DNA of 64,000 nucleotides, taken from positions 6,424,857-6,488,856 of the forward strand of contig NC_057718.1 of assembly GCF_004010195.1 (NCBI RefSeq), read 5' to 3'. The stretch is from Chiloscyllium plagiosum. Lineage: Eukaryota. The notes under the pieces were generated by a model, which had not been told where the DNA came from, searched no databases, and saw only the letters and a list, made by a program, of their open reading frames with translations. This document shows positions 4,285 through 62,393 of the stretch, in pieces; position 1 is the stretch's first letter; every line of letters starts with the position of its first letter. Made by a program: the position numbers and the translations under genes.

Positions 4285-4545
4285 GGTAAAAACAATGACT
4301 GCAGATGCTGGAGACCACAGTCTAGATTAGAGTAGTGCTGGAAAAGCACAGCAGGTCAGGCAGCATCCGAGGAGCAGGAAAATCGATGTTTCGGGCAAAA
4401 GCCCTTCATCAGGAATACAGGCAGCGAGCCTGAAGGGTGGAGAGCTAAGTGAGAGGAGGGTGGGGGTGGGGAGAAAGTAGCATAGAATAGAATAGGTGAG
4501 TGGGGGAGGGGATGAAGGTGATAGGTTAGGGGGGAGGGTGCTGAG
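4285..4545 (-). mobile_element. Penelope-like element 3' fragment, family A
   Basis: Similar to 46040-46500; carries a hammerhead motif and the pyrimidine-rich UTR (minus strand). Confidence 0.75.
4381..4416 (-). ncRNA. Minimal hammerhead ribozyme motif (family A; helix III CG>CA decayed)
   Basis: Minus strand: attc CTGATGA a gggc tttt gccc GAAA ca TC gatt. Confidence 0.6.
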
Positions 4546-4926: not shown

Positions 4927-5742
4927 TTCCCCTCCAATATACAAAAGAAATGCATCTCACGAGACTTAAAGCTCATTATTTTTTAACTAGTCTGATAAAT
5001 GCATGAATACTCCGAATATTTACCGTGTGCTTCTCAAACCCAAACCCCCAAATAGTCTAGATGTGGAAATGAGCAGTCCGTGTTGTTTGGTGTGACTAAA
5101 CATCCAATGCTATTGATAGAGTGCCCACATGAACTTCAGTCACATGTTTGTGGTGACCAGGCCTACACCAAACCCCTGGGGTAAAAACAAATGCTTATTT
5201 TAGCAAGAAACCAGTTGGAACCCTTTGTCCAAGTTTTTGGAGATCCAAACATGTCAGATCCCAAATCCATGATCTCCCAAACCCATGACTGCATCCAAGA
5301 TGGAGGGAATTCGGAGATTGCATGTCCTGTGTGGAATGTAAAGAGTTGCTACAATGGCAGGGCATGCAAGATAGAATGCAATATGTCCATTGCTCAATCA
5401 CTCAGCATTAGGCCATCCTGAATTCGTCCCCTTGTCGCAACTAATTCAAAAATATGTTGTCAAATGTGGCTGGAGCTGGAGCTAATGTGAGACAGATATG
5501 AATAAAATATTTTATTTCCAGCCCAACTATATAATTCCATCGATAACTGTGTTTCAGAGGGAGATAGCACAATGCTGGCTTTGAACATTTCTCATGACTC
5601 ATTTTCTCAAACTGCTGACTCAGTGTAAAAGATAACCCATATTTTCAAAGTATCTTTCAAATCACAAGGATGTCACAAAAAATGTGGAATACAGCCTTGG
5701 TGGAGATGCTGTCCCATTGAAGGAAAGGTGCCATCCAGGTTT

Positions 5743-5939
5743 AGGGCGTAGGTTTGCTCGCTGAGCTGTAGGTTTGATATCCAGATATTTCATTACCTGG
5801 CTAGGTAACATCATGAGTGGCGACCTCCAATTGAAGGTCAGGAAATGAAACGTCTGGATATCAAACCTACAGCTCAGCGAGCAAGCCTACACCCTAAACC
5901 TCAACCTGAGCTACAAACCTTCACAAACCTTGCAAAATA
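5743..5939. mobile_element. Palindromic Penelope-like element, family C, with decayed hammerhead
   Basis: Inverted arms (5737-5792 vs 5846-5901); TSD CCATCCAGGTTT at 5731-5742 and 5940-5951; minus strand 5781-5820 cca CTCATGA t gttacc tagcca ggtaat GAAA ta TC tgg. Confidence 0.7.
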
Positions 5940-10069: not shown

Positions 10070-10610
10070 ATAGAGTCATAGAGTCACACAGCATGAAAAC
10101 AAACCCTTTGGTTCAAGCAGTCCACGCTGACCTTGTTTCCAAACTAAACTATTCCCACCTGCCTGCGTTTGGCATCTATCCCTTCAAACCTTTTCTATTC
10201 ATGTACTTATCCAAATGTCTTTTAAATGTTGTGACTATACCCTCACCCACCCCTTCCTCAGGAAATTCATTCCACACGCAAACCATCCTCTGTGGAAATT
10301 TCCCCTCACAACTTTTTAAATCTTTCTCCTCTCACCTTAAAACTATCCCCCTTTGTTTTGAACTCTCCCACCTCAAAGAAAAGACTTCTGACATTCACCC
10401 TATCCATGTCCCTCATGATTTTATAAATCTCTATAAGGTCACTCCTCAACATCCTAAGCTCCAGTGAAGAAAGTCCCAGCATATCCAGCCTATTTTTACA
10501 TCGCTCCATTTCTGGCAACATCCTGGTAAATCCTTTCTGAACAGTCTCCAATTTGATAATATCCTTCCTATAGCAGGGCGACCAGAACTGGACACAGTAC
10601 TCCACTACTG
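10070..10610 (-). mobile_element. CR1 (HER1-like) LINE 3' fragment
   Basis: EYCVQFWSPCYRKDIIKLETVQK...DLIEIYKIM; CTATGACT tail repeats. Confidence 0.9.
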
Positions 10611-13170: not shown

Positions 13171-13538
13171 TCTGTGGTAATTTGAAGGAACTGTGCATTG
13201 AGGCTGTGGACAGCTAACGATTGACCAACAATTTCAAGGATGGCACTTACGCAAGGAATGCTGGGAGGTCTGGGCAATGGTCAGTACATCCACCTGGGGT
13301 AGAAGGAGAATAACATGCATGAGGTGCCGGGGGGGCATGTGGATAGATATGTTTGGGAAGGTAACATGTAAAAGGACACACAGGGAGAAACCCTTGCCAA
13401 AATTGGTGATGGGTGTCATCATTGAAATCTCTAAACTCCTGCTTGACAGTAACATGGGAACATCACATTGCCTGGCCGGGTTCAAGAAGAAAGTCCTTCA
13501 CTGTCTTCTGAATAGGATGTATCCAATTTGCCAAGAAT

Positions 13539-13765
13539 TATCCAATTTGCCGCAGAATAACCAAACAAATCTACCCCCTATCCTGATCGTGACCCTGCCA
13601 CCACCACAGCTTTCCAAGTAGCCCATTGATTATAGATTCTCGGCAATAAACCAATATCACAAGAATCTATACCCACATGGGCTACTTGGAAAGTTGTGGT
13701 GGTGGCAGGGTCACGATCTGGGATAGGGGGTAGATTTGTTTGGTTATACTGGGGCAAATTGGATA
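13539..13765. repeat. Long near-perfect inverted repeat (MITE-like hairpin)
   Basis: 13539-13626 is nearly the reverse complement of 13677-13765; inner TATAGATTCT/AGAATCTATA pair at 13631-13640 and 13662-13671. Confidence 0.9.
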
Positions 13766-13785
13766 CTTATTTTCAAGCTTTGCTG

Positions 13786-14659: not shown

Positions 14660-14790
14660 ACATGGTGGAAAAGCTCAACAGGTCTGGCTGTATCTGTGGA
14701 GAGAAATCAATGTTAACAAATGCTGCCAGACCTGCTGAGCTTTTCCAGCAACTTTTGTTTTTCTTTTTGATTTACAGCATCTGTGTTTTT
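14660..14790. mobile_element. Penelope-like family D palindromic remnant
   Basis: GGAAAAGCTCAACAGGTCTGGC / GCCAGACCTGCTGAGCTTTTCC inverted arms. Confidence 0.65.
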
Positions 14791-16252: not shown

Positions 16253-16894
16253 TGGGCATAATGAAGCTGCTCCTTTAGCAAGGTATGCTGTCCTTGGGTT
16301 TTTTTTCCAAAGGTCGTAAAAACACAAGTCTGGGCTTGGAAGGGTTTTGGGGCCAATTTGATTATAGCTAACAGATACTGCCTCAAACAAAAGGCTTTCG
16401 AGTTAAAAAAAACACACTTGTACACTGAAAGGCGAGTGGCCAGTTCTCCCAGCTTAGCTTCTCTCTGGTTTGATTTTATTTTTGGGCAGTCTGGCTATTC
16501 ACTGAAAGCAGTCAGGCAGTTATAATGCCTGCTGGACCCAAAGAAGCAGGTCTATGCTGACCCTGTCTGACTTCTCTCCTGGAAGACCCGGGTTTGATTT
16601 TACCTTAGTGCCAAGGGGTATTTATGGGGATTGTTGCAAGAATTTGTAACAACATCATTAAGGTAGGATAATCTGTTGGGTTTTCGGATAGGTTAAGTTA
16701 TTCTGTATTCTGTTTTGTTTGCGTTTCATTTGGTAATCTTGTAAATAAATTCTGTTTTGTTTAAAACTAAGTGGTTTGACCAGCTGAATCACTCCTAGAA
16801 TATCCATGCTATACCTGCTTAAAACAACTGGGAAAGTTAAGGCCTGGGATACTTTCTTGAAAGGTTTTGAGGGGGTCTGGCCTGGTCCATAACA
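16253..16894 (+). mobile_element. Solo LTR-like element
   Basis: ~640 bp insert ending CCATAACA, with an internal AATAAA near 16745; interrupts a family B arm. Confidence 0.55.
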
Positions 16895-16968
16895 CAAGTT
16901 ACAGTCCCAGAAGTTTATTTGAAATCATAAGCTTTCAGACTGCTGCTCCTTCATCAGGTGAAATTACT

Positions 16969-17005
16969 TCATCTGATGAAGGGGCTACGCTCCGAAAGCT
17001 TGTGA
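16969..17005 (+). ncRNA. Minimal hammerhead ribozyme motif (family B variant)
   Basis: tcat CTGATGA a ggggc tac gctcc GAAA gc TT gtga; helices I and II pair using G-U wobbles. Confidence 0.7.
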
Positions 17006-17209
17006 TTTCAAATAAGCCTGTTGGCCTATAAGTTGGTATCATGTGACTTCTGACTTTAAAGCTTTATGGAATGCCGGTTGGGCCCAGCTAGAACCTCACA
17101 CCTACCCTTCAGGAGGATGCAGAGGAGATTCGTTAGACAAGATTATATAGAGGGACTGAAGAAGGTGGGATTGTTCTCCTTAAACAAAGAGGATTTGAAA
17201 GAATTAAAT

Positions 17210-21209: not shown

Positions 21210-21349
21210 TAACCAACCCACCACCACCTGATGAAGGAGCAACGCTCCGAAAGCTAGTGCTTCCAATTAAACCTGTTGGACTGTAACCTGGTGTTGTGTG
21301 AGTTTTTAACTTTGTTCACCCCAGTCCAACACCGGCATCTCCAAACCAT
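21210..21349 (+). mobile_element. Penelope-like family B single-arm insertion
   Basis: TSD AACCAGCAACAT at 21198-21209 and 21350-21361. Confidence 0.85.
21225..21259 (+). ncRNA. Minimal hammerhead ribozyme motif (family B, intact)
   Basis: cac CTGATGA a ggagc aac gctcc GAAA gc TA gtg. Confidence 0.75.
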
Positions 21350-22107: not shown

Positions 22108-22190
22108 GTTAAAAGTCACACAACACCGGGTTATAGTCCAACAGGTTTAATTGGAAGCGCTAGCTTTCAGAGCGCTGCTCCTTTGATGAT
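22108..22190 (-). mobile_element. Penelope-like family B fragment
   Basis: CACACAACACCGGGTTATAGTCCAACAGGTTTAATTGGAAGCGCTAGCTTTCAGAGC. Confidence 0.75.
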
Positions 22191-29710: not shown

Positions 29711-30804
29711 ATAACTGAAACAAAAGGAGTGATGCTCCAAAAACTTCTCACTTCACTTTGAACCCAGAATCTGTCCTGAAGTCCTGACTTTGAAGTTGTA
29801 ATCAGCAGTTTGAGTTTTACTTTTAACCCTTCACACCAATAAACAGGCCAACGCCAACAGAAATCCTGTTAAATACAGGCGAAGAGATTGAATCCCTGCG
29901 AATGGCATGTTCTCATCAGAGGACAGGTCTAGAATTCTATTTGGATGCTACATTGTGTTCACTGTAAACAAAGACCATCCCATATGTCGATGGAAATTTT
30001 CTACTTTAAGGAAAAGCATGGAGAGACATCGACTTAACAAATTAAATGTTTGGACTGAACTACATGAAATGGAGTGCTTTTGCCACAGACATCTGACATA
30101 TTCATATCCATTCACGAAGAGCTCAGCGATCCCCTATTCTTTGCCAGAAGCTCAATTTCTCTGAGACTGAAACATTGTGAATCTCCTCATGTTGAAGGCC
30201 AGTATGAAGTCTCATTTCCCTGACTGGGTTTTATCAACACATAATTTTTCATAATTTTGATATCAGTGAGAATTTGCAGCATCAACGAGAGAGTTATGTT
30301 CAGTTTGAACAAGGTTCCATTCATGCCTCAGTTATCTGAACTGCTTTTCTCAGTGTCTGTGTTTTCAGGGAAGGCTGTTTGTGGTTGAAGTCCTGGCTGA
30401 CTGCTTGTGACTACTTCTTATGTCGGTCAGAAAGCTATATCAACAAAGTGGCCACTTCGGGGAATTGTCAGTGCCATGAGATTTGGGTTGAAATCCAGAC
30501 CACATCAGTGTCAGAGAAGTGTCTGCCAATGGGTAATGCAGTAACGCTGGAACAGTCTCAAAATAGTTTCTCACAAGTGCACAGTAGGTGAAAGTGGCAA
30601 TGATTAGTGTGAGCCTTAATTCAAAACAGCTAATGTAAGCATAAAGTATGTGGGGATAGATGTGTTGCAGTTGGTGTTACTCTTCTAATTAAGCGTTGAG
30701 CCAAATCACTTCACATCGATTCAAGTAAATAGAGTAAAATGTACTCTGCTTTCTGATAGTAAGAGGTGAGGAAAATGAGGATTGCTGAACAAGAAAACAA
30801 ACAG

Positions 30805-30900
30805 TAGAGGTAAAAACAATGACTGCAGATGCTGGAAACCAGATTCTGGATCAATGGTGCTGGAAGAGCACAGCAGTTCAGGCAGCATCGAGGAGCTTCA
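30805..30900 (-). mobile_element. Penelope-like family A 3' end
   Basis: GGTAAAAACAATGACTGCAGATGCTGG, as at 4285. Confidence 0.7.
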
Positions 30901-30949
30901 GCAAGAAAACAAACAGTGTCTGCCGAATTTACCTGCATCAGCCTGGATG

Positions 30950-32136: not shown

Positions 32137-32239
32137 CTTTTATAGGATCCCTGAAGAAGGGCTTATGCCCGAAACGTCGATTCTCCTGCTCCTCGGATGT
32201 TGCCTGGCCTGCTGTGTTTTTCCAGCATCACATTTTTCA
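32137..32239 (+). mobile_element. Penelope-like family A single-arm insertion
   Basis: TSD ACAATTTGATAGA at 32124-32136 and 32240-32252. Confidence 0.85.
32147..32182 (+). ncRNA. Minimal hammerhead ribozyme core (family A; helix I weak)
   Basis: atcc CTGAAGA a gggc ttat gccc GAAA cg TC gatt. Confidence 0.6.
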
Positions 32240-32317
32240 ACAATTTGATAGAGTGGGCAAATAGGAGATTGAGGTAGCTCCATGGTGAAATGTGAAATGA
32301 CAGATGGACAACACAAA

Positions 32318-32596: not shown

Positions 32597-32817
32597 ACAA
32601 AACAGAAATTGGGGGAGAAACTTAGCAAATCTGGCAGCATCTGTGGAGAGAAAGCAGAGTTACAGTTTCACAGAAAGCCTTTGTCTGATGAAGGGTCAAT
32701 GGACCCAGATGTTAATTCTGTTTCTCTCTCTCTCTCCACAGATGTTGTCAGATCTGCTGAGATCTTCCAGCAATTTCTATTTCCGTTTCTGATTTCCAGA
32801 ATCCACAGATCGTTCTT
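32597..32817. mobile_element. Palindromic Penelope-like family D element
   Basis: Inverted arms; TSD GAGGTTATTCAGAA at 32583-32596 and 32818-32831; CTGATGA a gggtc aatg gaccc at 32685-32706. Confidence 0.8.
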
Positions 32818-34350: not shown

Positions 34351-35024
34351 ATACATAAGAATTTCAAATCAGTAGAGTAGAGTTAGGAAGCTGTGTAAGC
34401 TCTAATCTATTTCTTCCTCTGTGCAAACATCTGAAAGCTATAAACGACAGAAGGTCCCAAACCAGAGGTCAATGCTGACTGATATATGCAGAGTGTCTGC
34501 GCAGTTTCAGGAGAAGATTTCTCAAATCCACACTATCTGCTTCCAGAGGTAGGAGTAAGGTGGTTAGGTATATGAGGGACGTGGAAGGATGGATAGGGAG
34601 CAGTGGTTCCCCATCATTGAAGGGTGACTAACAGGTGGATATTGTTGGAAGGTGAAGGCAGGAGATTTACAGGGTAATTGAGGTTTTGAGGGATCATGGT
34701 GTCACTTGAACTCTCCAAAGAACAACACAGTGCAAAGTTTCAAATGTAGCCACAATCTGCTGCCATTTTAAGGGTTTAAGAGTAGAAACAATACACAGAT
34801 ATAGCTAAAAGAGAATCCATCTTCATTCTGCCATCTTTAACGTGAGTCCTGAGCCCTGACTGATAACACCTGTGCCACCACCCTTCAGTCACCAGTGCCA
34901 GGCCCAGTAACATCAGAGTCGCCACTCTTCAAAAGCAACTCATCATCACTGGGCCCACCTCACCAATGGGCTGCCAATGCCAACTCCAGTGCTAGACCTA
35001 CACTCACCCAACAAACAGGAGACA

Positions 35025-35835
35025 GGGGCTCCAGGCATACCATAACCAGGAGAACCCAGCTCCAGATCTACTACAGCCAGGAGACCCCAGCTCCAGACCA
35101 CCAAAACCAGGAAACACCAACTCCAGACCAACCACAGCCAGGAAACACCAGCTCCAGGCCTACCACAGCCAAGAGACTCCAGCTCTAGACCACCAAAATC
35201 AGGAAACACCAGCTCCAGACCAACCACAGCCAGGAAACACCAGCTCCAGATCTACCACAGCCAGGAGACCCCAGCTCCAGACCAACCACAGCCAGGAAAC
35301 ACCAGCTCCAGATCTACCACAGCCAGGAGACCCCAGCTCCAGACCAACCACAGCCAAGAGACTCCAGCTCTAGACCACCAAAATCAGGAAACACCAGCTC
35401 CAGACCAACCACAGCCAGGAAACACCAGCTCCAGACCAACCACAGCCAGGAAACACCAGCTCCAGACCAACCACAGCCAGGAAATACCAGCTCCAGACCA
35501 ACCACAACTAGGAAACACTAGGTCCAGACCAACCACAGCCAGGAAATACCAGCTCCAGATCTACCACAAACAGGAGACTCTAGCTCCAGGCCTAACACAG
35601 CCAGGAGACTCCAGCTCCAGACCTACCACAAACAGGAAATTCCAGTTCCAGACCTACCACAGCCAGGAGACACCAGCTCCAGACCTACCACAGTCAGGAG
35701 ACACCAGCTCCAGGCCTACCACAGTCAGGATGCCCCATCTCCAAGCTTACCACAAGCAGGAGACATCGGCTCCACGCCTACTACAACCGGGGCAGCCCAG
35801 CTTCCACCTACCACAACCTGGAGACTCCAGCTCCG
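35025..35835. repeat. 31-bp minisatellite, ~26 copies
   Basis: Unit CCAGCTCCAGACCAACCACAGCCAGGAAACA. Confidence 0.95.
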
Positions 35836-37739: not shown

Positions 37740-38335
37740 GTCATAGAGTAATAGGGATGTACAGAATGGAAACAGACCATTTGGTCCAACCCGTCCATGC
37801 CGACCAGATATCCCAACCCAATCTAGTCCTACCTGCAAAAAAATCAAATAATTGATGGAAGTTCTTCCCATTTAGAGTCATAGAGTCATAGAGATGTACA
37901 GCATGGAAACAGACGCTTCGGTCATACCCGTCCTAGTCGTCCAGATATCCCAACCCAATCTAGTCCCACCTACCATATCACTCCAAACCCTTACTCTTCA
38001 TATATCCATCCAAATGCCTCTTAAATGTTGCAATTGTACCAGTCTCCACCACTTCCTCTGGCAGCTCATGCATACACGTACCACCCTCTGTATGAAAAAG
38101 TTGCCCCTTAGGTCTCTTTTATATCTTTCCCCTCTCACCCTAAACCTATGCCCTCTAGTTCTGGACTCCCCTACCCCAGGGAAAAGACTTTGCCTATTTA
38201 TCCTATCCATGCCCCTCATGATTTTGTAAACCTCTATAAGGTCACCCCTCAGCCTCTGACGCTCCAGGGAAAACAGCCCCAGCCTGTTCAGCCTCTCCCT
38301 ATAGCTCAAATCCTTGTAAATCTTTTCTGGACCTT
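37740..38335 (-). mobile_element. CR1 (HER1-like) 3' fragments, two tails
   Basis: ORF 37998-38489 LSYRERLNRLGLFSLERQRLRGDLIEVYKIMRG; tails at 37740 and 37875. Confidence 0.9.
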
Positions 38336-43429: not shown

Positions 43430-43530
43430 ACACCAGTGCTGCTCAGTTTGAAAGTCAGTGTTTCCAAATAAACCTGTTGGACTATAATCTGGTGTCATGT
43501 GATTTTTAACTTTGTCCACCCCAGTCCAAC
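43430..43530 (+). mobile_element. Penelope-like family B fragment
   Basis: AAACCTGTTGGACTATAATCTGGTGTCATGTGATTTTTAACTTTGTCCACCCCAGTCCAAC. Confidence 0.7.
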
Positions 43531-43621
43531 ATGGGTCCTCTCAATTGCAGTTGGACTAACTGACAAGCTCCCTGGTGCACTTCTCTCTCTCACACTCCCT
43601 GTGACATTCCTTACAACACGT

Positions 43622-46039: not shown

Positions 46040-46500
46040 ATAGGAGAAAGTGAGGGCTGCAGATGCTGGAGATCAGAGTTGAAAATGTGTTGCTGGAAAA
46101 GCGCAGTAGGTCGGGCAGCATCCAAGGAACAGGAGAATCGACGTTTCGGGCATAAGCCCTTCTTCAGGAATGAGGAAAGATAAAAGGTAGGGAGGAGGGA
46201 CTTGGGGGAGGGGTGTTGGAAATGCGATAGGTGGAGGAAGGTCAAGGTGAGGGTGATAGGCCAGAGTGGGGTGCCAGTGGAGAGGTCAGGAAGAAGATTG
46301 CAGGTTAGGAAGGCAGTGCTGAGTTTGAGGGATTTGACTGAGACAAGGTGGGGGGAGGGGAAATGAGGAAACTGGAGAAATCTGAGTTCATCCCTTGTGG
46401 TTGGAGGGTTCCTTGGCAGAAGATGAGGCGCTCTTCCTCCAACCGTCGTGATGCATGGTCTGGCAATGGAGGAGTCTAAGGACCTGCATGTCCTTGGTGG
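46040..46500 (-). mobile_element. Penelope-like element 3' fragment (GIY-YIG C-terminus, UTR and hammerhead), family A
   Basis: Minus-strand translation KDMQVLRLLHCQT / RRLEEERLIFCQGTLQPQGMNSDFSSF, matching the PLE GIY-YIG end motif R.LEE..LIF.LGTL.P.G.N. Confidence 0.8.
46136..46171 (-). ncRNA. Minimal hammerhead ribozyme motif (family A, core intact)
   Basis: attc CTGAAGA a gggc ttat gccc GAAA cg TC gatt. Confidence 0.7.
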
Positions 46501-48267: not shown

Positions 48268-48405
48268 CAGTTCTGAAGGAGGGCCACTGCACCCAAAATG
48301 TTGACTTTGCTTTCTCCCCACAGACTCTGCCAGACCTGCTGAGTTGCTCCAGCAATTTCTGTTTTAGTTTCAGGTTTCCAGCATTTGCAGATCTTGGTTT
48401 TATTT
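48268..48405 (+). mobile_element. Penelope-like family D single arm, decayed hammerhead
   Basis: agtt CTGAAGG a gggcc actg caccc AAAA tg TT gact. Confidence 0.65.
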
Positions 48406-49272: not shown

Positions 49273-49394
49273 GGAACTTAGGCAGGTACAGCTTCTTTAG
49301 TTACAAGATCTCAGAAAATAGAGAAATGAAATGTCCAGTGGTGCAGAAATAAAATTTCAGAACCACGTCTCCCACCCAGACCATGCAGGCACCT

Positions 49395-50402
49395 CGTCTC
49401 CAGTCCACACCGAGCCCTGGCTCCAGCCCACACCTGGCCCTGTCTCCAGTCCACACCAAGCCCTGGCTCCAGCCCACACCTGGCCCTGGCTCCAGTCCAC
49501 ACCGGGCCCTGGCTCCAGTCCACACCGAGCCCTGGCTCCAGCCCACACCGGGCCCTGGCTCCAGCCCACACCTGACCCTGTCTCCAGTCCACACCGAGCC
49601 CTGGCTCCAGCCCACACCGAGCCCTGTCTCCAGTTCACACCGAGCCCTGGCTCCAGCCCACACCAAGCCTTGTCTCCAGTCCATACCGAGTCCTGGCTCC
49701 AGCCCACACCGGTCCTGCCTCCAGCCCACACTGGGCCCTGGCTCCAGTCCACACCGGGCCCTGGATCCAGTCCACACTGGGCCCTGGCTAAAATCCACAC
49801 TGGGCCCTGCCTCCAGCCCACACTAGGCCCTGGCCCCAGTCTGTACTGGTCCCTGGCTCCAGTCCAAACCGGGCCCTGGCTCCATTCTGTACCGGGCCCT
49901 GCCTTCAGTCCACACCAGGCCCTGACTCCAGTCTGTACTGGGCCCTGGCTCCAGCCCACACTGGGCCCTGGCTCCAGCCCACACTAGGCCCTGGCTCCAG
50001 CCCACACTAGGCCCTGGCTCCAGCCCACACTAGGCCCTGGCTCCAGTCTGTACTGGTCGCTGGCTCCAGTCCACACCGGGCCCTGACTCCAGTCTGTACC
50101 CGGCCCTGGCTCCAGTCTGTACCGGGCCCTGGCTCCAGCCCACACTGGGCCCTGGCTCCAGCCCACACTGGGCCCTGGCTCCAGCCCACACCGGGCCCTG
50201 GCTCCAGCCCACACCGGGCCCTGGCTCCAGCCCACACTGGGCCCTGGCTCCAGTCCACACTGGGCCCTAGCTCCAGTCCACACTGGGCTCTGGCTCCAGT
50301 CCACACTGGGCCCTGGCTCCAGTCCATACCAGGCCCAGGCTCCAACCTACACCAGGCCCTTGCTCCAGTCCACACCAGGCCCTGACTCAATCCACACCAG
50401 GC
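49395..50402. repeat. 23-bp GC-rich minisatellite, ~44 copies
   Basis: Unit GGGCCCTGGCTCCAGCCCACACT with variants. Confidence 0.97.
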
Positions 50403-50844
50403 TTTGCCTTGAGGATCATGAGGCTGGGAGACTGCTTCAGAACAACAGGCCAGGCTGGGAGGCCATGTGGGGCATCCGCTGTGCCAGGCTGGGAGGTTGC
50501 CACAACACCAACTGTATGAGTCCAATGCTACAATAACGTGTCAAATTAATATTCCTTTACTGTAACATTGTCTTGTGCTACATTTCTCACTGCATGATAT
50601 CCAGCACAGAACATAAATGCTCTTCCCCTCTTGACATGTGAGAGTCTTCTGACGCACTCCTTCCTGTGTTCTTCTCCATACAATTGTATTTATTTATACT
50701 CCACTGTAAGAAAATCAAACTGAAATATTTACACACGTTGAGAAATGACCCAGAGAAACCAACACCCGTGCTTATGGGCTAAGTAACTAATATCAGAACA
50801 CAGAACATTTCTCTATTTTAAATGATACCTTCACAAAACCTTTA

Positions 50845-51140: not shown

Positions 51141-51978
51141 AAAAAAAATGGGAGGAGAGATAATCGGCTGGGTCGCAGATAAAAGACAAGCGCAGCAGCT
51201 GCAGGAGGATAAGGAGGGTATGGTTGGCGAGAGAGAAAACTCAGCAGAGTGCAATCATAGTTCGAGGGAACATCTGTAAAAATGGACCCTTTGAGTTTTT
51301 CTTTTATATTGTCAGACAGCAGGCTGCAAAAAATAAACAGACCAGGAGTCTGAGACGATGAAAGGAAGCCACACTCAGCAGTGATGAGATCAAACTGTCC
51401 AATGGCTATGCCAGTGCATTCTTTGCCGTCCGTGTCTATGAATAGCTGTCCCACTTAATTTCCAAAGTTCAAATGAGGGATTATTTACCAGAAAGCACAG
51501 TGCTTTCACTGTCACAGAATGTTTTGATCCTCTGGATGTTGGGTCAGACATTCTCTGAGCATGTCCTGCTCAACCTGATGCCTCATCCCCTGCCAATTTA
51601 CAGTGGGTAATCCATGGACATTTGGTTGTGTTTTCAAATAAAGCTGTTGGGCTATAACCTGGTGTCTGTGACTTCCATTGAAATGTGAAAGCAAGGAAGA
51701 GATGCAGAATCAATTACCCAGAAGAAGCCTTTCTGTTTGAATATTATTATCAAACTTTTATTCCAACCTGAGTCATAGAGTCATACAGCTCGGGAAACAA
51801 ACCCTTCGGTCCAACCAGTCCATGCTGAACATAATCCCAAACTAAACTAGTCCCACCTGCCTGCTCCTGACCCACATCCCTCCAAACATTTCCTATTCAT
51901 GTACCTACCCAAACATCTTTTAAACATTGTTAAAAATCACAACACCAGGTTATAGTCCAACAGGTTTAATTGGAAGCA

Positions 51979-52013
51979 CACTAGCTTTCGGAGCGACGCT
52001 CCTTCATCAGGTG
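51979..52013 (-). ncRNA. Minimal hammerhead ribozyme motif (family B, intact)
   Basis: cac CTGATGA a ggagc gtc gctcc GAAA gc TA gtg. Confidence 0.75.
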
Positions 52014-52034
52014 ATTGTGGAGGGCTCGATCGTA

Positions 52035-52071
52035 ACACCTGATGAAGGAGCGTCACTCTGAAAGCTAGTGT
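52035..52071 (+). ncRNA. Minimal hammerhead ribozyme motif (family B, helix II partly decayed)
   Basis: acac CTGATGA a ggagc gtc actct GAAA gc TA gtgt. Confidence 0.65.
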
Positions 52072-54739
52072 GCTTCCAATTAAACCTGTTGGACTATAAC
52101 CTGGTGTTGTGTGATTTTTAACTTTGTACACCCCACTCCAACACCGGCATCTCCGAATCATGACTTTTAAACATTGTAATTGCACCCACATCCATCCCTT
52201 CCTCGGGAAGTTCATTCTTTGCGTGAACCAACCACTGTGTTAAAAATGTGCCCTCGTGTCTTTTTTAAAATCAATCTCCTCTCATCTTTAATATGTGTCT
52301 CCCAGTCTTGAAATCTCCAATTCTAGTGAAAAGACCCATGTCTATACCCCTCATGATTTTATAAACTTCTCTAAGGTCACCTCTCAACCTCCCACATTCC
52401 ATGAATTTAACATCTGACAGAAGGTTTGGCAAAGCATCACTCAATCAGGATTTCCTCTGAATTCATAGCTCAGCTAATCCACTCATGTTCTGAAGTAGCT
52501 TGTCAAACCCAGTCAGCTTCTGCTATTTTGTTTACAGGATTCACTGATGCTAGATAAACTACATGCAAATCAGTGATTTATCAATCTGTTTGCATCCTGT
52601 CTGTTACAAAAAAGACCCTTTGCAGGCTTTGTTACAATCCTAGTTTTGACAAGTTCCAGACAGGATATTTCACGCCATTGAGCCTCTGAATGCAGAGGAA
52701 CACACTGGATCTCACCTGGTTCTTTATTTACCCATTTCTTCGGTTCGTTGTAATCCAGTTAACTTAGAAAATACCCCTTCCTTTGTGCATACCTTTCTCC
52801 CAGATGCCATGAACTCATGTTTTAAAAGGAACCAATTTAAACAGGCACCATGAATTAACAAAAGAAATGAATTTATTAATTACTAAGCGTCAGAAGCAAC
52901 ATATATACATACAGATTCAAAATAAAAGCCGAGTCCAAAAAGACTAACGTGTACAAAATACATAGAGGATCAGTCACTAAATTGCTCTTGAAGAGTAGAT
53001 AGTTGATAACTTTTTCTCAAGGGTTATGGCGAGAAGGCAGGATAGTGGGTTTGAGACGTAGTTCAGCCAAGATTGAATAGGGGAACAAACTCAATGGGCC
53101 AAATGGTCTCATTCTAATTCTTTATCTTGTGTTTGTAACCATTGTAGTGAAGGTCACTGGTAGCACTGGCATTGATAGTTGAACAGTTGTCGTTGTTCTG
53201 GACAGTTTTGGCTTTGTAGGGCGGTTGAAGTTTCTTAATCTTCTATATCCTTGGTATGCAACACTCCAATAGAGAGCATTCCTCCTTTACCTGCAACACA
53301 GGGGTGTAATGACAAGGATAATTTTTCAACTATGACCAATACGGCATCCTAAAGTTTGAACTTAATATGTTACATCTGAGAGCGTTCAGCCCCACTAGTC
53401 CATTCCTGCAGAGTTAAAACTGACTTTTTAGCCTCTATCCTTAAGATTTTGGAAGTTAAAACAGACATATCTACAAAAGATGGCTTTCTGGTTAAACAGA
53501 ACCAAATGTCAGCCACTTGTTATTTCTTCTTGTCACGTCTCTCCATGCTTGAAATGTCATTGACAATTTAAGTGTAACATTTCATGGGGCTTCACTCAGG
53601 ATTCTGCCAGACAGTCACTGAATTTAAATCTGTAGTTTCTCCGTAGCAATCCTCTTTTTGAAATCAGCACATTTTGGAATTAAAAGTAAAAGGATGTCCA
53701 TAAGTACTTTACGATTCTAATCCAACATCATAAGACAAGCTGAATGAACATCTTAAATTACAGACTAAACACTTACAAACTTTAGTGTGCTTTAGGAGAA
53801 GCTGCCCATCATGGGTCTGACATGCTGTCCATTTATTGTAGCCTCATGTTGTCTGATATGTTTGAGGTGCAGTATTCCTTACCGTACATTACCTGATTCC
53901 ATATCGGTATCTTATCAGATTCCATATTGTATCTAGTATTCAAGTCATCATCATTGCAATACTCCCTTATTAGTCCAAAAACATGCCAATGATTTTCTGG
54001 CATTTCACAAATGAACACTTACAAACACATTGTAATAAGCTTTGCAAACAAAGTTAATAAAAATTTCATTTTGCAAACACATTGAGTTAATTTAATCCCT
54101 TTAATTATGACAAGCTTGCAAGAGAAACACTTGGCATACACCAGAATCACAACATAAAATCTTCGTTTTGCTTTGATGGTCTTTTACTTGTACCTTTTGT
54201 CTCAGGAACTCCGGTCAGCTCAGCAGGATTAAGACATTTCATTGCCCCCTTTGGAACCCCCTTTTGATTCTTTCTTCCCCTATAACTCTGTCACAGCTCC
54301 GACATCTGGTTCATGTGCTGCTCTGTCTTTGACATTATGATATCATTTTCTACATGAAGAATTTCTGTCCCACTTCTGGTGATTGCTTGGGAATCTGTTT
54401 CCCTTCTTGGTGATGACAGTGCACAACATTGAGTGTCTTTCCTAAGATGGCTCTGCCATCTCATCTCCTGGCACCACACCAGACTATCTAGCTTCATTCC
54501 TGAGGTTTACATGAAACATTGCAGCAACCAGTTTCTCATCATCTTGATCTCAGGCCTCCTGGTCATCACTAATGTCCTTCAGCTCTAGTATTCTGGTGTA
54601 CTTTCCATATTCAAAAACAATTCAGTAAGGCTCAATCCCATTATAGTTTGTGGAGTTACTCTAAACAGGGTGTCTTATGATTGCAACATTTGCTTTAAAT
54701 CATTGGTCTCAGTTTGAACTTCCAAAACTCATCTGTTTC

Positions 54740-56184: not shown

Positions 56185-56380
56185 GGATAAAACTGAAAGA
56201 ACTGCAGGTGCTGTAAATCAGAAACAAAGTTAGAAATTGCTGGAAAAGCTCTGCAGGTCTGGCAACATCGGTGAAGAGAAAGCAGAGTTAAGTGACCCTT
56301 TCTCTGAACTCTGTCTTCTCTACATGGATGCTGCCAGACCTGCTGAGCTTTACCAGCAAGTTCTGCTTTTGTTTGTCTCT
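56185..56380. mobile_element. Palindromic Penelope-like family D element
   Basis: TGCTGGAAAAGCTCTGCAGGTCTGGCA / TGCCAGACCTGCTGAGCTTTACCAGCA inverted arms. Confidence 0.7.
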
Positions 56381-59182: not shown

Positions 59183-59305
59183 ACATGATGTGGAGATGCT
59201 GATGTCGGATTGGGAAGGTCAGAAGTCACACAACACCAGGACATAGCCTAACAGGTCTATTTAAAATTATAGGCTTTTGGAACACAGTTCCTTTGACAGG
59301 TGAAG
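59183..59305 (-). mobile_element. Penelope-like family B fragment, old
   Basis: GGAGATGCTGATGTCGGATTGGG...AGAAGTCACACAACACCAGG. Confidence 0.6.
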
Positions 59306-59624: not shown

Positions 59625-60330
59625 TATGAGGTGACAACACAAAGTTAGGTTGGAGGGTCAACAGTGAGAAGGATGCAAAGATACATCAGTGTGAATTGTT
59701 TTAGAGAACAAACACATGGAAGATGAAATGCAATGTGGGTAAATGGGAAGTTATCCATTTTAGCAGCAAAAACAGGCAGATGTATTGCTATCTGAATGAC
59801 AATAGATTGGGCAAGGGATGGACGGTACAATGAGATTTGGGTGTCCTTGTATGCCAGTCACTGAAGGTAAGCACTGCAGGTACAGCAGGCAGTGAAGAAG
59901 GTCAGTGTTGTTTTGGCCTTCATAGCGAGAGAGTTCGAGTACAGGAGCAGGGATGTCTTGCTGTAATTGTACAGGGTCTTGGTGAGACCGCACTTGGAAC
60001 ATTGTATGCAGTTCAGAAGAATGAGGGGTTTGCCATAGAAACCAATACAATTCTAACAGAAAAAGACTGGGTAATGCAAGAAGAAACAAAAACAGAAATT
60101 ACTGGAAAGTCCCAGCAGGTCTGGCAGCATCTATGGAGAGAAATCAGAGTTAAATTCTTGGGCCCAGTGCCCCTTCCTCAGAATGGAGCCTTCAGTTCTG
60201 AAATGATTACTGGACCGGAAACGTTAACTCTGATTTCTCTGCACCAAGGCTGCCAGACTTGCTGAGCTTTTCCAGCAAATGTCAAAGGGCTGAATGGCCT
60301 ACCCCTATTCCTACTTTCCATGATTCTATG
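59625..60330 (+). mobile_element. CR1 fragment interrupted by a family D palindrome
   Basis: DDT.LG, EYRSRDVLL.LYRVLVRPHLE motifs; tail at 60283-60330. Confidence 0.8.
60083..60280. mobile_element. Palindromic Penelope-like family D element
   Basis: Inverted arms; agtt CTGAAAT...GAAACGTT aact at 60194-60229. Confidence 0.7.
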
Positions 60331-60830
60331 TGAAAAAACCTCTGAGTGCTGGAAAGCTGTGGGAAATATACATCCAAATTTACAGGCACCACCAACCTTG
60401 TGTCATGGCTCCATTGCTCACATCCTGAAACATTATTTTCACCTCTTAGTTTGCTTCCCCATCTGCCTCTCCTTTCCCAGTTCCACTCACTTTGAATCAA
60501 TGTTGTGTTTCAGCCAAATTCTCAGACACATAAGGGTGTCCTGCCAGAAAATAAATTACTGAACTATCCAATCCACTTTCCTGAACCACAGCCTTGGGCA
60601 TGGGGTGAGTAGTTCATCTCATTTCATTCCAAATCTACCGCACTGTGGCTGGAAAAATGTGAAAACGTGTTTCCAAAATTTCAAAGATAACAATAAGAGA
60701 TGCCACTGTTTTATTTACACATTGTTCCCCACGGTCCGATTTGGGGACAACCAGATCCTGACCGAACTCTCCAAATGATGGCAAGGATTTCTCTTACCGT
60801 ATTACATCGGTGACGGCGTGTCCAAATCTC

Positions 60831-61050
60831 GGAGGAAGTGGGTACTGCAGATGCTGGAGATTAGAGTCAAGATTAGAGTGGTGCTGTAAAAACACAGCAG
60901 GTCAGGCAGCATCTGAAGAGCAGGAAAATCGATGTTTTGGGCAAAAGCCCTTCATCAGGAATGAAAGGTTTTTGCCCGAAACATCAATTTTCCTGCTCTT
61001 CAGATGCTGCCTGACCTGCTGTGCTTTTCCAGTACCTCTCTAATCTTGAC
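60831..61050. mobile_element. Palindromic Penelope-like family A element
   Basis: 60866-60955 inverted relative to 60962-61050; flanked by CCAAATCTC at 60822-60830 and 61057-61065. Confidence 0.85.
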
Positions 61051-61950: not shown

Positions 61951-62075
61951 AAGGAAAACGATGTCAATGTGAATCCTGCTGCCTTATGGGACTTTTCACT
62001 CGATCGCTGCCAGTCAGGATTTGTTGAGTCACATGAGGGCCCCAGGCAGAAACATCTGACCTGAGTAGGTGGCAT

Positions 62076-62289
62076 GATTTGGAGATGACGGTGTTGGACT
62101 GGGGTGTACAAAGTTAAAAATCACACAACACCAGGTTATAGTCCAACAGGTTTAATTGGAAGCACACTAGCTTTCGGAGCGTCGCTCCTTCATCAGGTGA
62201 CTGTCATCACTGAAGGAGCAGCAGTCCGAAAGCTAGTGTGCTTCCAATTAAACCTGTTGGACTATAACCTGGTGTTGTGTGATTTTTAA
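62076..62289. mobile_element. Palindromic Penelope-like family B element
   Basis: Inverted arms; imperfect TSD CTGAGTAGGTGGCAT (62061-62075) / CTGAGTACTTGGCAT (62290-62304). Confidence 0.88.
62165..62199 (-). ncRNA. Minimal hammerhead ribozyme motif (family B, intact)
   Basis: cac CTGATGA a ggagc gac gctcc GAAA gc TA gtg. Confidence 0.75.
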
Positions 62290-62393
62290 CTGAGTACTTG
62301 GCATCCTTAAATCTTCGGAACAGTTTACAATGATATTGGGTCTATTTTACACCTTCCTGATATCACTCCTTTGCCTCTTTTCAAGCCACAATA

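What the first reader, a model, noticed from the sequence alone, without database searches (positions are those of the whole stretch)
51917..52177. 233-bp double-hammerhead palindrome inserted as one unit with a perfect 14-bp TSD
Seen: an antisense arm (51931-52013) and a sense arm (52036-52163) diverge from a ~20-nt spacer, giving a hammerhead on each strand. The whole element sits inside a CR1 between two CTTTTAAACATTGT copies and has no coding capacity. Established: PLEs often carry inverted terminal repeats. Inference: either a recurrent PLE integration product (template switch or twin priming) or a non-autonomous element mobilised in trans. Transcription in either direction gives one ribozyme plus its antisense, so a long hairpin competes with the ribozyme fold and could be an ADAR or Dicer substrate.
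Basis: partly seen in the sequence, partly recalled or inferred. Interest (0 to 1): 0.75.

Follow-up and report, generated by a model that had tools for sequence, protein, structure and literature searches.

The report
Palindromic Penelope retroelement stub insertion
The palindrome is two cut-short copies of the same end of a Penelope-like jumping gene, joined head to head during one insertion event, a pattern already described for this class and common in this genome; the one extra is that the family's RNA is polyadenylated just behind its small ribozyme motif.

Summary
In detail: 233 bp, a 14-bp duplication, opposed arms, a minimal hammerhead motif per strand, inside a LINE 3' end whose two paralogues in the window cross the site with one copy of the duplicated word. 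Two corrections. There is no spacer: 52014-52035 is element body, so the arms (51931-52038, 52036-52163) meet at a shared CAC. The plus-strand hammerhead has two stem II substitutions. The unit is the described Penelope-like 'inverted truncated copy + tail + TSD' product. It is most likely two cDNAs primed from both target ends at the element's two start sites and annealed at their 3' ends. A single master is unlikely: 14 of 14 listed arm-to-arm joints in public DNA differ, as do 3 of 3 family palindromes here. The scan noted this before on other DNA of this genome (e1-7858806, e1-7789271). New here: 720 of 2232 family RNA reads carry a poly(A)-type run 12-15 nt behind an AUUAAA/AAUAAA hexamer, upstream of both start sites. 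Orthologous empty site, locus-specific transcription and editing remain untested.

The parts
51770..51930 (-). Host LINE (CR1-type, label recalled), 3'-terminal part with 8-nt terminal repeat
51917..51930 (+). Left copy of 14-bp target-site duplication (11 of 14 A/T); last 2 nt also fit the element
51931..52038 (-). Inverted arm, 108 bp: pLTR end without tail, plus 22 nt of element body upstream of the hammerhead
   Evidence: (loose ends behind 52038)
51950..51953 (-). Position equivalent to the family's poly(A) addition site (family-wide RNA reads, not locus-specific)
   Evidence: table 7: 395 and 325 reads with a T run before these places
51965..51970 (-). ATTAAA hexamer of the inverted arm; the commonest listed family variant within it is AATAAA
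   Evidence: table 3, 59, 60
51979..52013 (-). Minimal type I hammerhead motif, intact: helix I 3 bp, core, bulged A, 5-bp helix II, palindromic AGCU; predicted cut between 51982 and 51981
   Evidence: features as in PMC4209133
52014..52035 (-).
   Evidence: table 7
52036..52038 (.). 3-nt microhomology (CAC) shared by both arms: the inner junction
52036..52163 (+). Direct arm, 128 bp: from the 5' strand of hammerhead helix I to the end of the tail
52036..52071 (+). Minimal hammerhead motif, damaged in helix II (52055, 52059)
52079..52119 (+). ATTAAA (52079-52084), poly(A)-site equivalent (52096-52099) and GU-rich downstream stretch of the direct arm
52123..52163 (+). Tail of about 41 nt, present on the direct arm only, ending at an ATG
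   Evidence: hundreds of family contigs end at 52122-52125
52164..52177 (+). Right copy of the target-site duplication
52164..52392 (-). Host LINE continues (C-terminal end of the ORF)

Best explanation
This is a dead-on-arrival insertion of an endonuclease-bearing Penelope-like element (PLE), made in one event. (1) The element's GIY-YIG endonuclease nicks an A/T-rich target in an old LINE on both strands 14 nt apart (TSD shown; enzyme inferred). (2) Both free 3' ends prime reverse transcription inside the element RNA at its two start sites about 40 nt apart. The top strand starts at the tail-less site and copies 108 nt; the bottom strand starts at the tail end and copies 128 nt, stopping at the front edge of the hammerhead (boundaries shown; priming inferred from the anole PLE in vitro). 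(3) The two same-sense cDNAs anneal by 3 nt at their 3' ends and are filled in, which gives a head-to-head palindrome with the tail on one side only (microhomology shown; order inferred). The palindrome is thus built anew at each insertion and is not itself a mobile unit. It most likely does nothing for the host. The two hammerheads lie on opposite strands, can never share one RNA and cannot form the dimer that minimal hammerheads need; one is already decayed; any read-through RNA folds into a hairpin that buries both the ribozyme and the poly(A) hexamer.
For: Single TSD word at 2 of 2 paralogous empty sites in the window, and a multi-copy contig that joins 51913 to 52165 without the insert (X2, depth 89.9, table 5c). 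No host DNA or second TSD at the centre; arm lengths sum exactly. Outer ends are shared: the left end equals the family's most frequent listed contig end (52122-52125; 181-345 contigs per position in each of 3 DNA runs), and the copy at 62073-62290 starts its inverted arm within 1 nt of the same point. Inner ends are not shared: 3 of 3 family palindromes in the window and 14 of 14 listed arm-to-arm joints differ, several with extra bases. The tail is absent from the left arm, so it cannot come from copying that arm back. In the 2 other family palindromes the arms carry different helix II variants, which suggests two templates. PMC11167929 (parts 1-2 of 4 read): an anole PLE cuts and extends both strands at A/T-rich DNA and starts at two internal sites that bound the tail. 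PMC8557442 (passages) and PMC3846280 (passages and Discussion): inverted truncated copy, 30-40-bp tail and TSD are typical. The same hammerhead type followed by AATAAA lies behind GIY-YIG and RT coding sequence in 2 of 2 metagenome hits.
Against: The junction alone cannot separate annealing of two cDNAs from fold-back: CAC can also pair with the GTG 22 nt upstream on its own strand. This copy's two arms are compatible with one template (only two CpG-type changes and a TG slip). 681 of 696 joints were not displayed, and some listed joints have depth 100-1490 against 4-27 for single-copy flanks, so a few palindromes may be multi-copy. The copy number of this copy's own junction was not measured. 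No PLE ORF of this family was seen (tblastn of the L001/L002 frames against the window found nothing). PMC11167929 reports that the start site is not homologous to the cut DNA, so the 2-nt outer overlaps may be chance. The orthologous empty site was not seen.
Confidence: 0.7

Rival explanations
1. Same single insertion event, but the palindrome arises by fold-back. The top-strand cDNA ends in CAC, pairs with GTG on itself across a 22-nt loop, copies itself back, then anneals to a short bottom-strand cDNA that supplies the tail; or self-priming on an antisense RNA, as proposed for rotifer Penelopes.
For: The junction geometry fits a 3-bp stem and 22-nt loop (structure). Other centres have short hairpin-like loops (5 nt at 16963-16967). 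This copy's arms share the GTC loop and the GTGTG form. PMC3846280 Discussion proposes self-priming.
Against: It still needs a second priming for the tail. The arms of the copies at 62 kb and 16.9 kb differ in helix II near the centre, where a fold-back copy should be identical; at 62 kb the 66 nt beyond are identical. Offsets between arm ends in listed joints range from -14 to +67 nt, several with inserted bases.
Confidence: 0.2
2. A non-autonomous palindromic element, formed once and then copied in trans by PLE proteins as a unit.
For: Some joints recur at high depth: 52018-52098 at 1491.7 in X2, and 52018-52072 with the same 12-nt insert at 137 (X1) and 175 (X2). PLEs can move pLTR-bounded cargo in trans (PMC3846280 passages). 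An earlier scan note reports a multi-copy PLE-mobilised repeat in this genome (e1-7858329, unchecked).
Against: No two listed junctions agree (14 of 14 in runs, 3 of 3 in the window). The 52018-52098 joint is only about 23 deep in X1 and X10, though counting there was incomplete. High depth can also come from segmental duplication, passage inside another repeat, or recurrent joining at microhomologies. A near-perfect long hairpin RNA is a poor template (inference).
Confidence: 0.07
3. Two independent insertions head to head, a later rearrangement, or an assembly artefact.
For: No listed contig piece spans this centre (table 8). PLEs tend to insert next to earlier copies (PMC6765202 passage).
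Against: One perfect outer TSD and no inner duplication or host DNA. The arms differ at 2 bases and 1 indel, so one is not an assembler's mirror of the other. Joints of the same kind occur in 3 of 3 DNA runs from 3 studies.
Confidence: 0.03

Closest known systems
Insertion units of canonical EN+ Penelope-like elements: inverted 5'-truncated pLTR, direct pLTR, 30-40-bp tail, TSD (PMC8557442 Fig. 2 legend and passages; PMC3846280 passages on Pen2a_Av; PMC2377424 Fig. 1C legend passage)
   Same: Head-to-head arrangement, tail on one side, short overlap between inverted and direct copies, TSD, microhomology at the 5' junction.
   Different: Both copies are truncated to pLTR size, so no ORF lies between them; the TSD is 14 bp (12-16 bp in other copies here) against 8-10 bp in the rotifer examples; density is several per 64 kb.
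Poseidon element of Anolis carolinensis (PAc) in vitro (PMC11167929, parts 1-2 of 4 read)
   Same: A/T-rich target, two ends about a tail apart, uncleaved hammerhead in the copied template.
   Different: In PAc the ORF starts inside the hammerhead; here the first ATG seen lies at the tail end. The nearest coding relatives found (L001, L002) have a CX3CxxC motif before a C-terminal GIY-YIG domain, which points to Neptune/Nematis (PMC8557442 passages). The clade of this family itself was not determined.
Minimal hammerheads (min-HHR) of metazoan PLE pLTRs (PMC4209133, parts 1-2 of 4 read)
   Same: Conserved core, bulged base before helix II, G10.1-C11.1, palindromic 15.2-16.2, short helix I; that paper already notes pairs 100-700 bp apart on opposite strands in Schistosoma.
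   Different: Helix II is 5 bp; the two cores are only 29 bp apart; one copy has lost G10.1-C11.1 to a wobble.
Non-LTR retrozymes (bioRxiv 10.64898/2026.07.22.740005, parts 1-2 of 5 read)
   Same: Non-coding, hammerhead-bearing, PLE-derived, present in a cartilaginous fish.
   Different: Retrozymes are head-to-tail tandem repeats with same-strand ribozymes; this unit is head to head.
L1 twin-priming 5' inversions (recalled, no call)
   Same: Both target ends prime on the RNA, and the products join by microhomology inside one TSD.
   Different: In L1 the inverted and direct parts are adjacent, non-overlapping RNA segments; here the same segment is copied twice.

Membership tests
EN+ PLE insertion unit | pLTR carrying a minimal hammerhead | tested here: met
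EN+ PLE insertion unit | Inverted 5'-truncated copy directly adjacent at the 5' end | tested here: met
EN+ PLE insertion unit | 30-40-bp tail at one end only | tested here: met
   about 41 nt, 52123-52163; family contig ends pile at 52122-52125
EN+ PLE insertion unit | TSD at an A/T-rich target | tested here: met
EN+ PLE insertion unit | Parent element encodes telomerase-like RT plus GIY-YIG endonuclease | tested here: inconclusive
   No ORF of this family in the window. Indirect only: L001 has RVT_1 at E 1.5e-5, below the Pfam cut-off; L002 has no Pfam hit but GIY-YIG look-alikes at 0.97; both carry the same hammerhead type.
Metazoan PLE min-HHR | Core bases, bulged base at 9/10.1, palindromic 15.2-16.2 | tested here: met
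   both arms
Metazoan PLE min-HHR | G10.1-C11.1 pair and intact helix II, minus-strand arm | tested here: met
Metazoan PLE min-HHR | G10.1-C11.1 pair and intact helix II, plus-strand arm | tested here: not met
   G-U wobble and a C-A mismatch; pair probability about 0.01
Metazoan PLE min-HHR | Self-cleavage as a dimer or with protein help | not testable with these tools
   No pile-up of RNA ends was listed (table 6); a 3'-end library would lose the short product.
Non-LTR retrozyme | Head-to-tail tandem units, each with a same-strand hammerhead | tested here: not met
Non-autonomous master element (MITE-like or MRC1-like) | Dispersed copies share the same internal junction | tested here: not met
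   3 of 3 window copies and 14 of 14 listed joints differ; 681 joints unseen; a few listed joints are high-depth
CR1 LINE (host) | Clade placement by RT phylogeny | not tested
   Only LINE ORF-end homology and RVT_1 in a related copy; the name CR1 is recalled.

The most novel reading that the evidence does not exclude
The pLTR of this family works like a retroviral U3-R-U5. The RNA starts at the front edge of the hammerhead and is polyadenylated about 60 nt further on in the 3' repeat, so both reverse-transcription start sites (23-29 and about 65 nt beyond the poly(A) site) exist only in the 5' repeat of the mRNA. Reverse transcription then starts internally near the 5' end and runs off after about 130 nt, like a strong-stop cDNA. 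A successful jump to the 3' repeat gives arms that reach into the body, as the left arm does; a failed jump gives the abundant 130-bp stubs; two such cDNAs joined give the palindromes. Each palindrome is also a potential two-way poly(A) cassette whose signal is masked by its own hairpin unless editing or decay opens it. Three paper searches and term look-ups in PMC2377424 and PMC8557442 found no account of a pLTR poly(A) site; subscription papers were not searchable.
Probability: 0.3. Interest if true: 0.6.

Novelty: new member of a known kind. Interest (0 to 1): 0.27.

Why it matters
As a locus it is ordinary: one of many such stubs. As a population, these palindromes record each step of PLE integration, whose later stages are still stated to be unvalidated (PMC11167929). 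Fixed outer ends, free inner ends and arms that can differ in subfamily bases allow two-template priming to be told from fold-back by counting in an assembly. If the poly(A) site holds up, it places the RNA's 3' end upstream of both priming sites. That would force an internal-start-and-jump or read-through model, and it would mean the genome is seeded with many ready-made one- and two-way poly(A) signals and dsRNA hairpins.

Tried and rejected
No assembly was available for this window, so no genome-wide count was made. Rfam at gathering score: 0 hits; minimal hammerheads are evidently not captured. An exact 26-nt family motif gave 0 hits in viral contigs and 0 in metagenome contigs; a looser hammerhead motif gave 2 loci from other marine organisms. 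Scan look-up by sequence and near this place: nothing. Sequencing-run search: no RNA holder listed. RNA run X21 gave no reads on the unique flanks, but it is a 3'-end library of which about 2 in 100 was read, so this says nothing on silence. A-to-I editing: A>G plus T>C made up 26 of 106 variable places in RNA against 13 of 60, 13 of 62 and 17 of 78 in DNA (Fisher p about 0.7 each); these are family pile-ups, only 128 of 2232 reads were 99% alike, so the test is uninformative for this locus (my notebook's 26/101 was a miscount). Orthologous empty site in organism B: contigs cover 51388-51822 and 52363-52800, but no listed piece bridges the site. Covariation count on 12 aligned arms: no excess over shuffles (80-500 of 500 reach the observed values); too few, too similar rows, and I set the helix III pair one column off. 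The short hammerhead fragments do not fold better than shuffles (6 of 6 with z above -1), as expected for motifs lacking helix III. TSD search found no convincing duplication for 6 of 11 regions tested (16.9, 56.3, 60.2, 5.8, 13.6, 48.3 kb). The paper on dimer cleavage of PLE hammerheads (PMC5785218) was not seen; its result is known to me only through a review passage and recall. Supplements of PMC11167929 (Fig. S2) and PMC4209133 were not read and may bear on RNA ends. Rejected: MITE or DNA transposon (asymmetric arms, tail, 14-bp TSD); retrozyme (not tandem); an intramolecular ribozyme dimer (opposite strands).
Full report
Verdict. The feature is real. It is a single insertion of two truncated copies of one Penelope-like element (PLE) end, joined head to head. 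The architecture is described in print as typical of PLEs, is frequent in this window, and was noted by this scan on other DNA of the same genome. Interest 0.27.

Observation. The 14-bp direct repeat at 51917 and 52164 is perfect, and the arms are 97% complementary over 76 nt. The word occurs nowhere else in the window. The insert folds at -159.8 kcal/mol, z -22.5. The host is the 3' end of a LINE on the minus strand: its right flank matches the ORF end of an RT-bearing copy in the window, and a related copy carries RVT_1. CR1 is a recalled label. Two paralogues of the host, at 10073-10454 and 37883-38256, pass the site uninterrupted with one copy of the duplicated word. A multi-copy contig of run X2 also joins the two flanks without the insert. 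The duplication is therefore a true TSD. The orthologous empty site was not seen.

Anatomy, corrected. I laid three DNA runs (two of organism A, one of organism B) and one RNA run on 51300-52800. In all four, family sequences match through 52038 and then continue into the same further sequence, so the 'spacer' is element body. The inverted arm is 51931-52038 and the direct arm 52036-52163; they share CAC, and 108 + 128 - 3 = 233. The direct arm alone has a tail of about 41 nt ending at an ATG. The inverted arm starts at the position where family contigs most often end among the listed rows (52122-52125). Each arm holds a minimal type I hammerhead motif of the kind defined in PMC4209133 (parts 1-2 read). 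The plus-strand copy has two CpG-type changes in helix II and barely forms it (probability about 0.01 against 0.49). Rfam does not detect either.

Master element or fresh product? The window holds two more palindromes of this family (62073-62290, with a 15-bp TSD matching at 13 of 15; 16888-17057) and several single arms (21225-21349 with a 12-bp TSD; 22108-22183; 43443-43531; 59184-59262; 51627-51674). All 3 palindromes have different centres. Of 696 joints found in the runs, 15 were displayed; 14 join an inverted arm to a direct arm, and all 14 have different breakpoints, with offsets from -14 to +67 nt and several inserts. The fifteenth links an old fragment to the right arm and was left out. 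Against a purely one-off origin, some joints are deep (100-1490 against 4-27 on unique flanks), and one with a 12-nt insert recurs in two runs, so a minority of palindromes may be multi-copy. This copy's own junction is the reference and could not appear as a joint. Eight of 13 short-range inverted pairs in the window are head-to-head hammerhead-type ends from three families by my reading; the third family is assigned by likeness to degenerate motifs only.

Mechanism. An anole PLE protein cuts A/T-rich DNA on both strands, extends both, and starts at two internal RNA sites that bound the genomic tail; hammerhead cleavage is not needed (PMC11167929, parts 1-2 read). Applied here: nicks 14 nt apart; the top strand primes at the tail-less site, the bottom strand at the tail end; the two cDNAs anneal at 3 nt and are filled in. 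Shown: TSD, boundaries, microhomology, tail asymmetry, variable centres. Inferred: the enzyme, the priming and the order. Fold-back (self-priming is proposed in PMC3846280, Discussion) gives the same junction and remains the main rival. It cannot supply the tail alone, and in the two other palindromes the arms differ in helix II; at 62 kb they are identical over the next 66 nt. No ORF of this family was found. The link to PLE coding sequence is indirect: two marine metagenome contigs carry the same hammerhead type, then AATAAA, behind RT and GIY-YIG sequence with a CX3CxxC motif, which suggests Neptune/Nematis.

Function. The two ribozyme motifs lie on opposite strands and cannot dimerise in one RNA. 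In 4 of 4 read-through models the hairpin reduces helix II and the unpaired hexamer to 0.0. No read could be tied to this locus. The share of A>G and T>C places in RNA equals that in DNA and is uninformative. The copy looks young (identical TSDs; 2 substitutions and 1 indel between arms) and shows decay, not conservation. The best reading is no host function.

What is new. In RNA run X21 (single-cell, poly(A)-selected, about 2 in 100 read), 2232 reads were laid. Of these 395 and 325 carry a long T run before 51950 and 51953, and 76 more, of an indel variant listed at 51979, show T's at the same point (1938 loose-end rows not displayed). This marks a poly(A) site in the element's sense, 12-15 nt after ATTAAA and before a GU-rich stretch; the next 20 nt contain one A, so internal priming on the family sequence is unlikely. 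The commonest listed variant in the hexamer converts it to AATAAA (35-51% of DNA depth at 51969), and 9 of 11 window arms have one of the two hexamers. Reads continue upstream through the uncut hammerhead into at least three different body sequences, so several source loci contribute. Limits: the reads are family-wide, duplicates were not counted, and genomic copies already bearing an A tail there were not excluded. The site lies upstream of both priming sites, so a polyadenylated 3' end cannot be the template. Either the 5' repeat of the mRNA or a read-through RNA is. Earlier notes that arms begin just before the hammerhead (e1-7858061, e1-7858714; seen here in the direct arms at 52036, 62 kb, 21 kb, 16.9 kb and 59 kb) then suggest an LTR-like R region with strong-stop cDNAs. 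I give that 0.3. Searches found no paper stating it; the library lacks subscription papers.

Comparison. It works like, and meets four of five tested features of, an EN+ PLE insertion unit (PMC8557442 passages; PMC3846280 passages; PMC2377424 passages); the coding parent is inconclusive. Opposite-strand hammerhead pairs were noted in 2014. It is not a retrozyme (bioRxiv 10.64898/2026.07.22.740005, parts 1-2 read) and not shown to be a master element. Searches for PLE palindromes with twin priming, and for shark PLE inverted repeats, returned 1 unrelated review, 0 papers and 2 papers (listings only). PMC6155905 passages added nothing on sharks.

Noticed in passing
window 62073-62290 (-): Second young palindrome of the same family with a 15-bp TSD (13 of 15). 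Its inverted arm has a different helix II variant and a 4-nt deletion in the hammerhead core, while 66 nt beyond are identical to the direct arm.
   Followed up: partly
window 16888-17057 and 62211-62290: In both, the tail-less inverted arm carries the same helix II variant (AGCAG) and the direct arm does not, although the two copies belong to an older and a younger subfamily. Unexplained.
   Followed up: no
window 52052-52054, 62180-62182, 21241-21243: Helix II loop variants GTC and GAC are reverse complements of each other, which may reflect in-place inversion of the small hairpin.
   Followed up: no
window 60820-61050, 4298-4416, 30790-30917, 32147-32241, 46043-46173: A second hammerhead-bearing family (helix III word ACGT, no AATAAA seen behind it): one palindrome with an 11-of-12 TSD, one solo copy with a 16-bp TSD.
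   Followed up: partly
window 32597-32817, 56222-56374, 60099-60278, 14663-14750, 48271-48393: A third, older family forming head-to-head palindromes with degenerate hammerhead-like centres; the 32.7-kb copy has a perfect 14-bp TSD.
   Followed up: partly
window 5737-5901 and 13528-13776: Two further long inverted repeats (63-nt arms; about 100-nt arms) not assigned to any family; no TSD found.
   Followed up: no
joints 52018-52098 (X2) and 52018-52072 (X1, X2): Palindrome junctions elsewhere in the genome with depth 10-100 times single copy, one with the same 12-nt insert in two runs: candidates for amplified palindromes.
   Followed up: no
joints with right-arm starts at 52069-52073: 5 of 14 listed joints start the direct arm 1-5 nt after the predicted hammerhead cut (52067/52068); may reflect cleaved templates, or only the 2-nt subfamily indel there.
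   Followed up: no
window 51636-51661 (run X2, record 18): One contig covers 51571-51661 and then 51636-51763, suggesting a 26-bp tandem duplication allele inside an old family fragment.
   Followed up: no
L002 1-109 and 983-1091; L001 1-650: Marine metagenome contigs of a related PLE with inverted internal segments; L001 joins reverse-strand RT sequence to the pLTR-proximal body, i.e. the same head-to-head rearrangement at larger scale.
   Followed up: partly
window 35008-35834 and 49386-50413: Two minisatellite arrays (units of about 31 and 23/46 nt) with long open frames; not examined.
   Followed up: no
window 52735 and 52747: All three DNA runs differ from the window at these two unique-flank positions: private alleles or assembly errors.
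   Followed up: no
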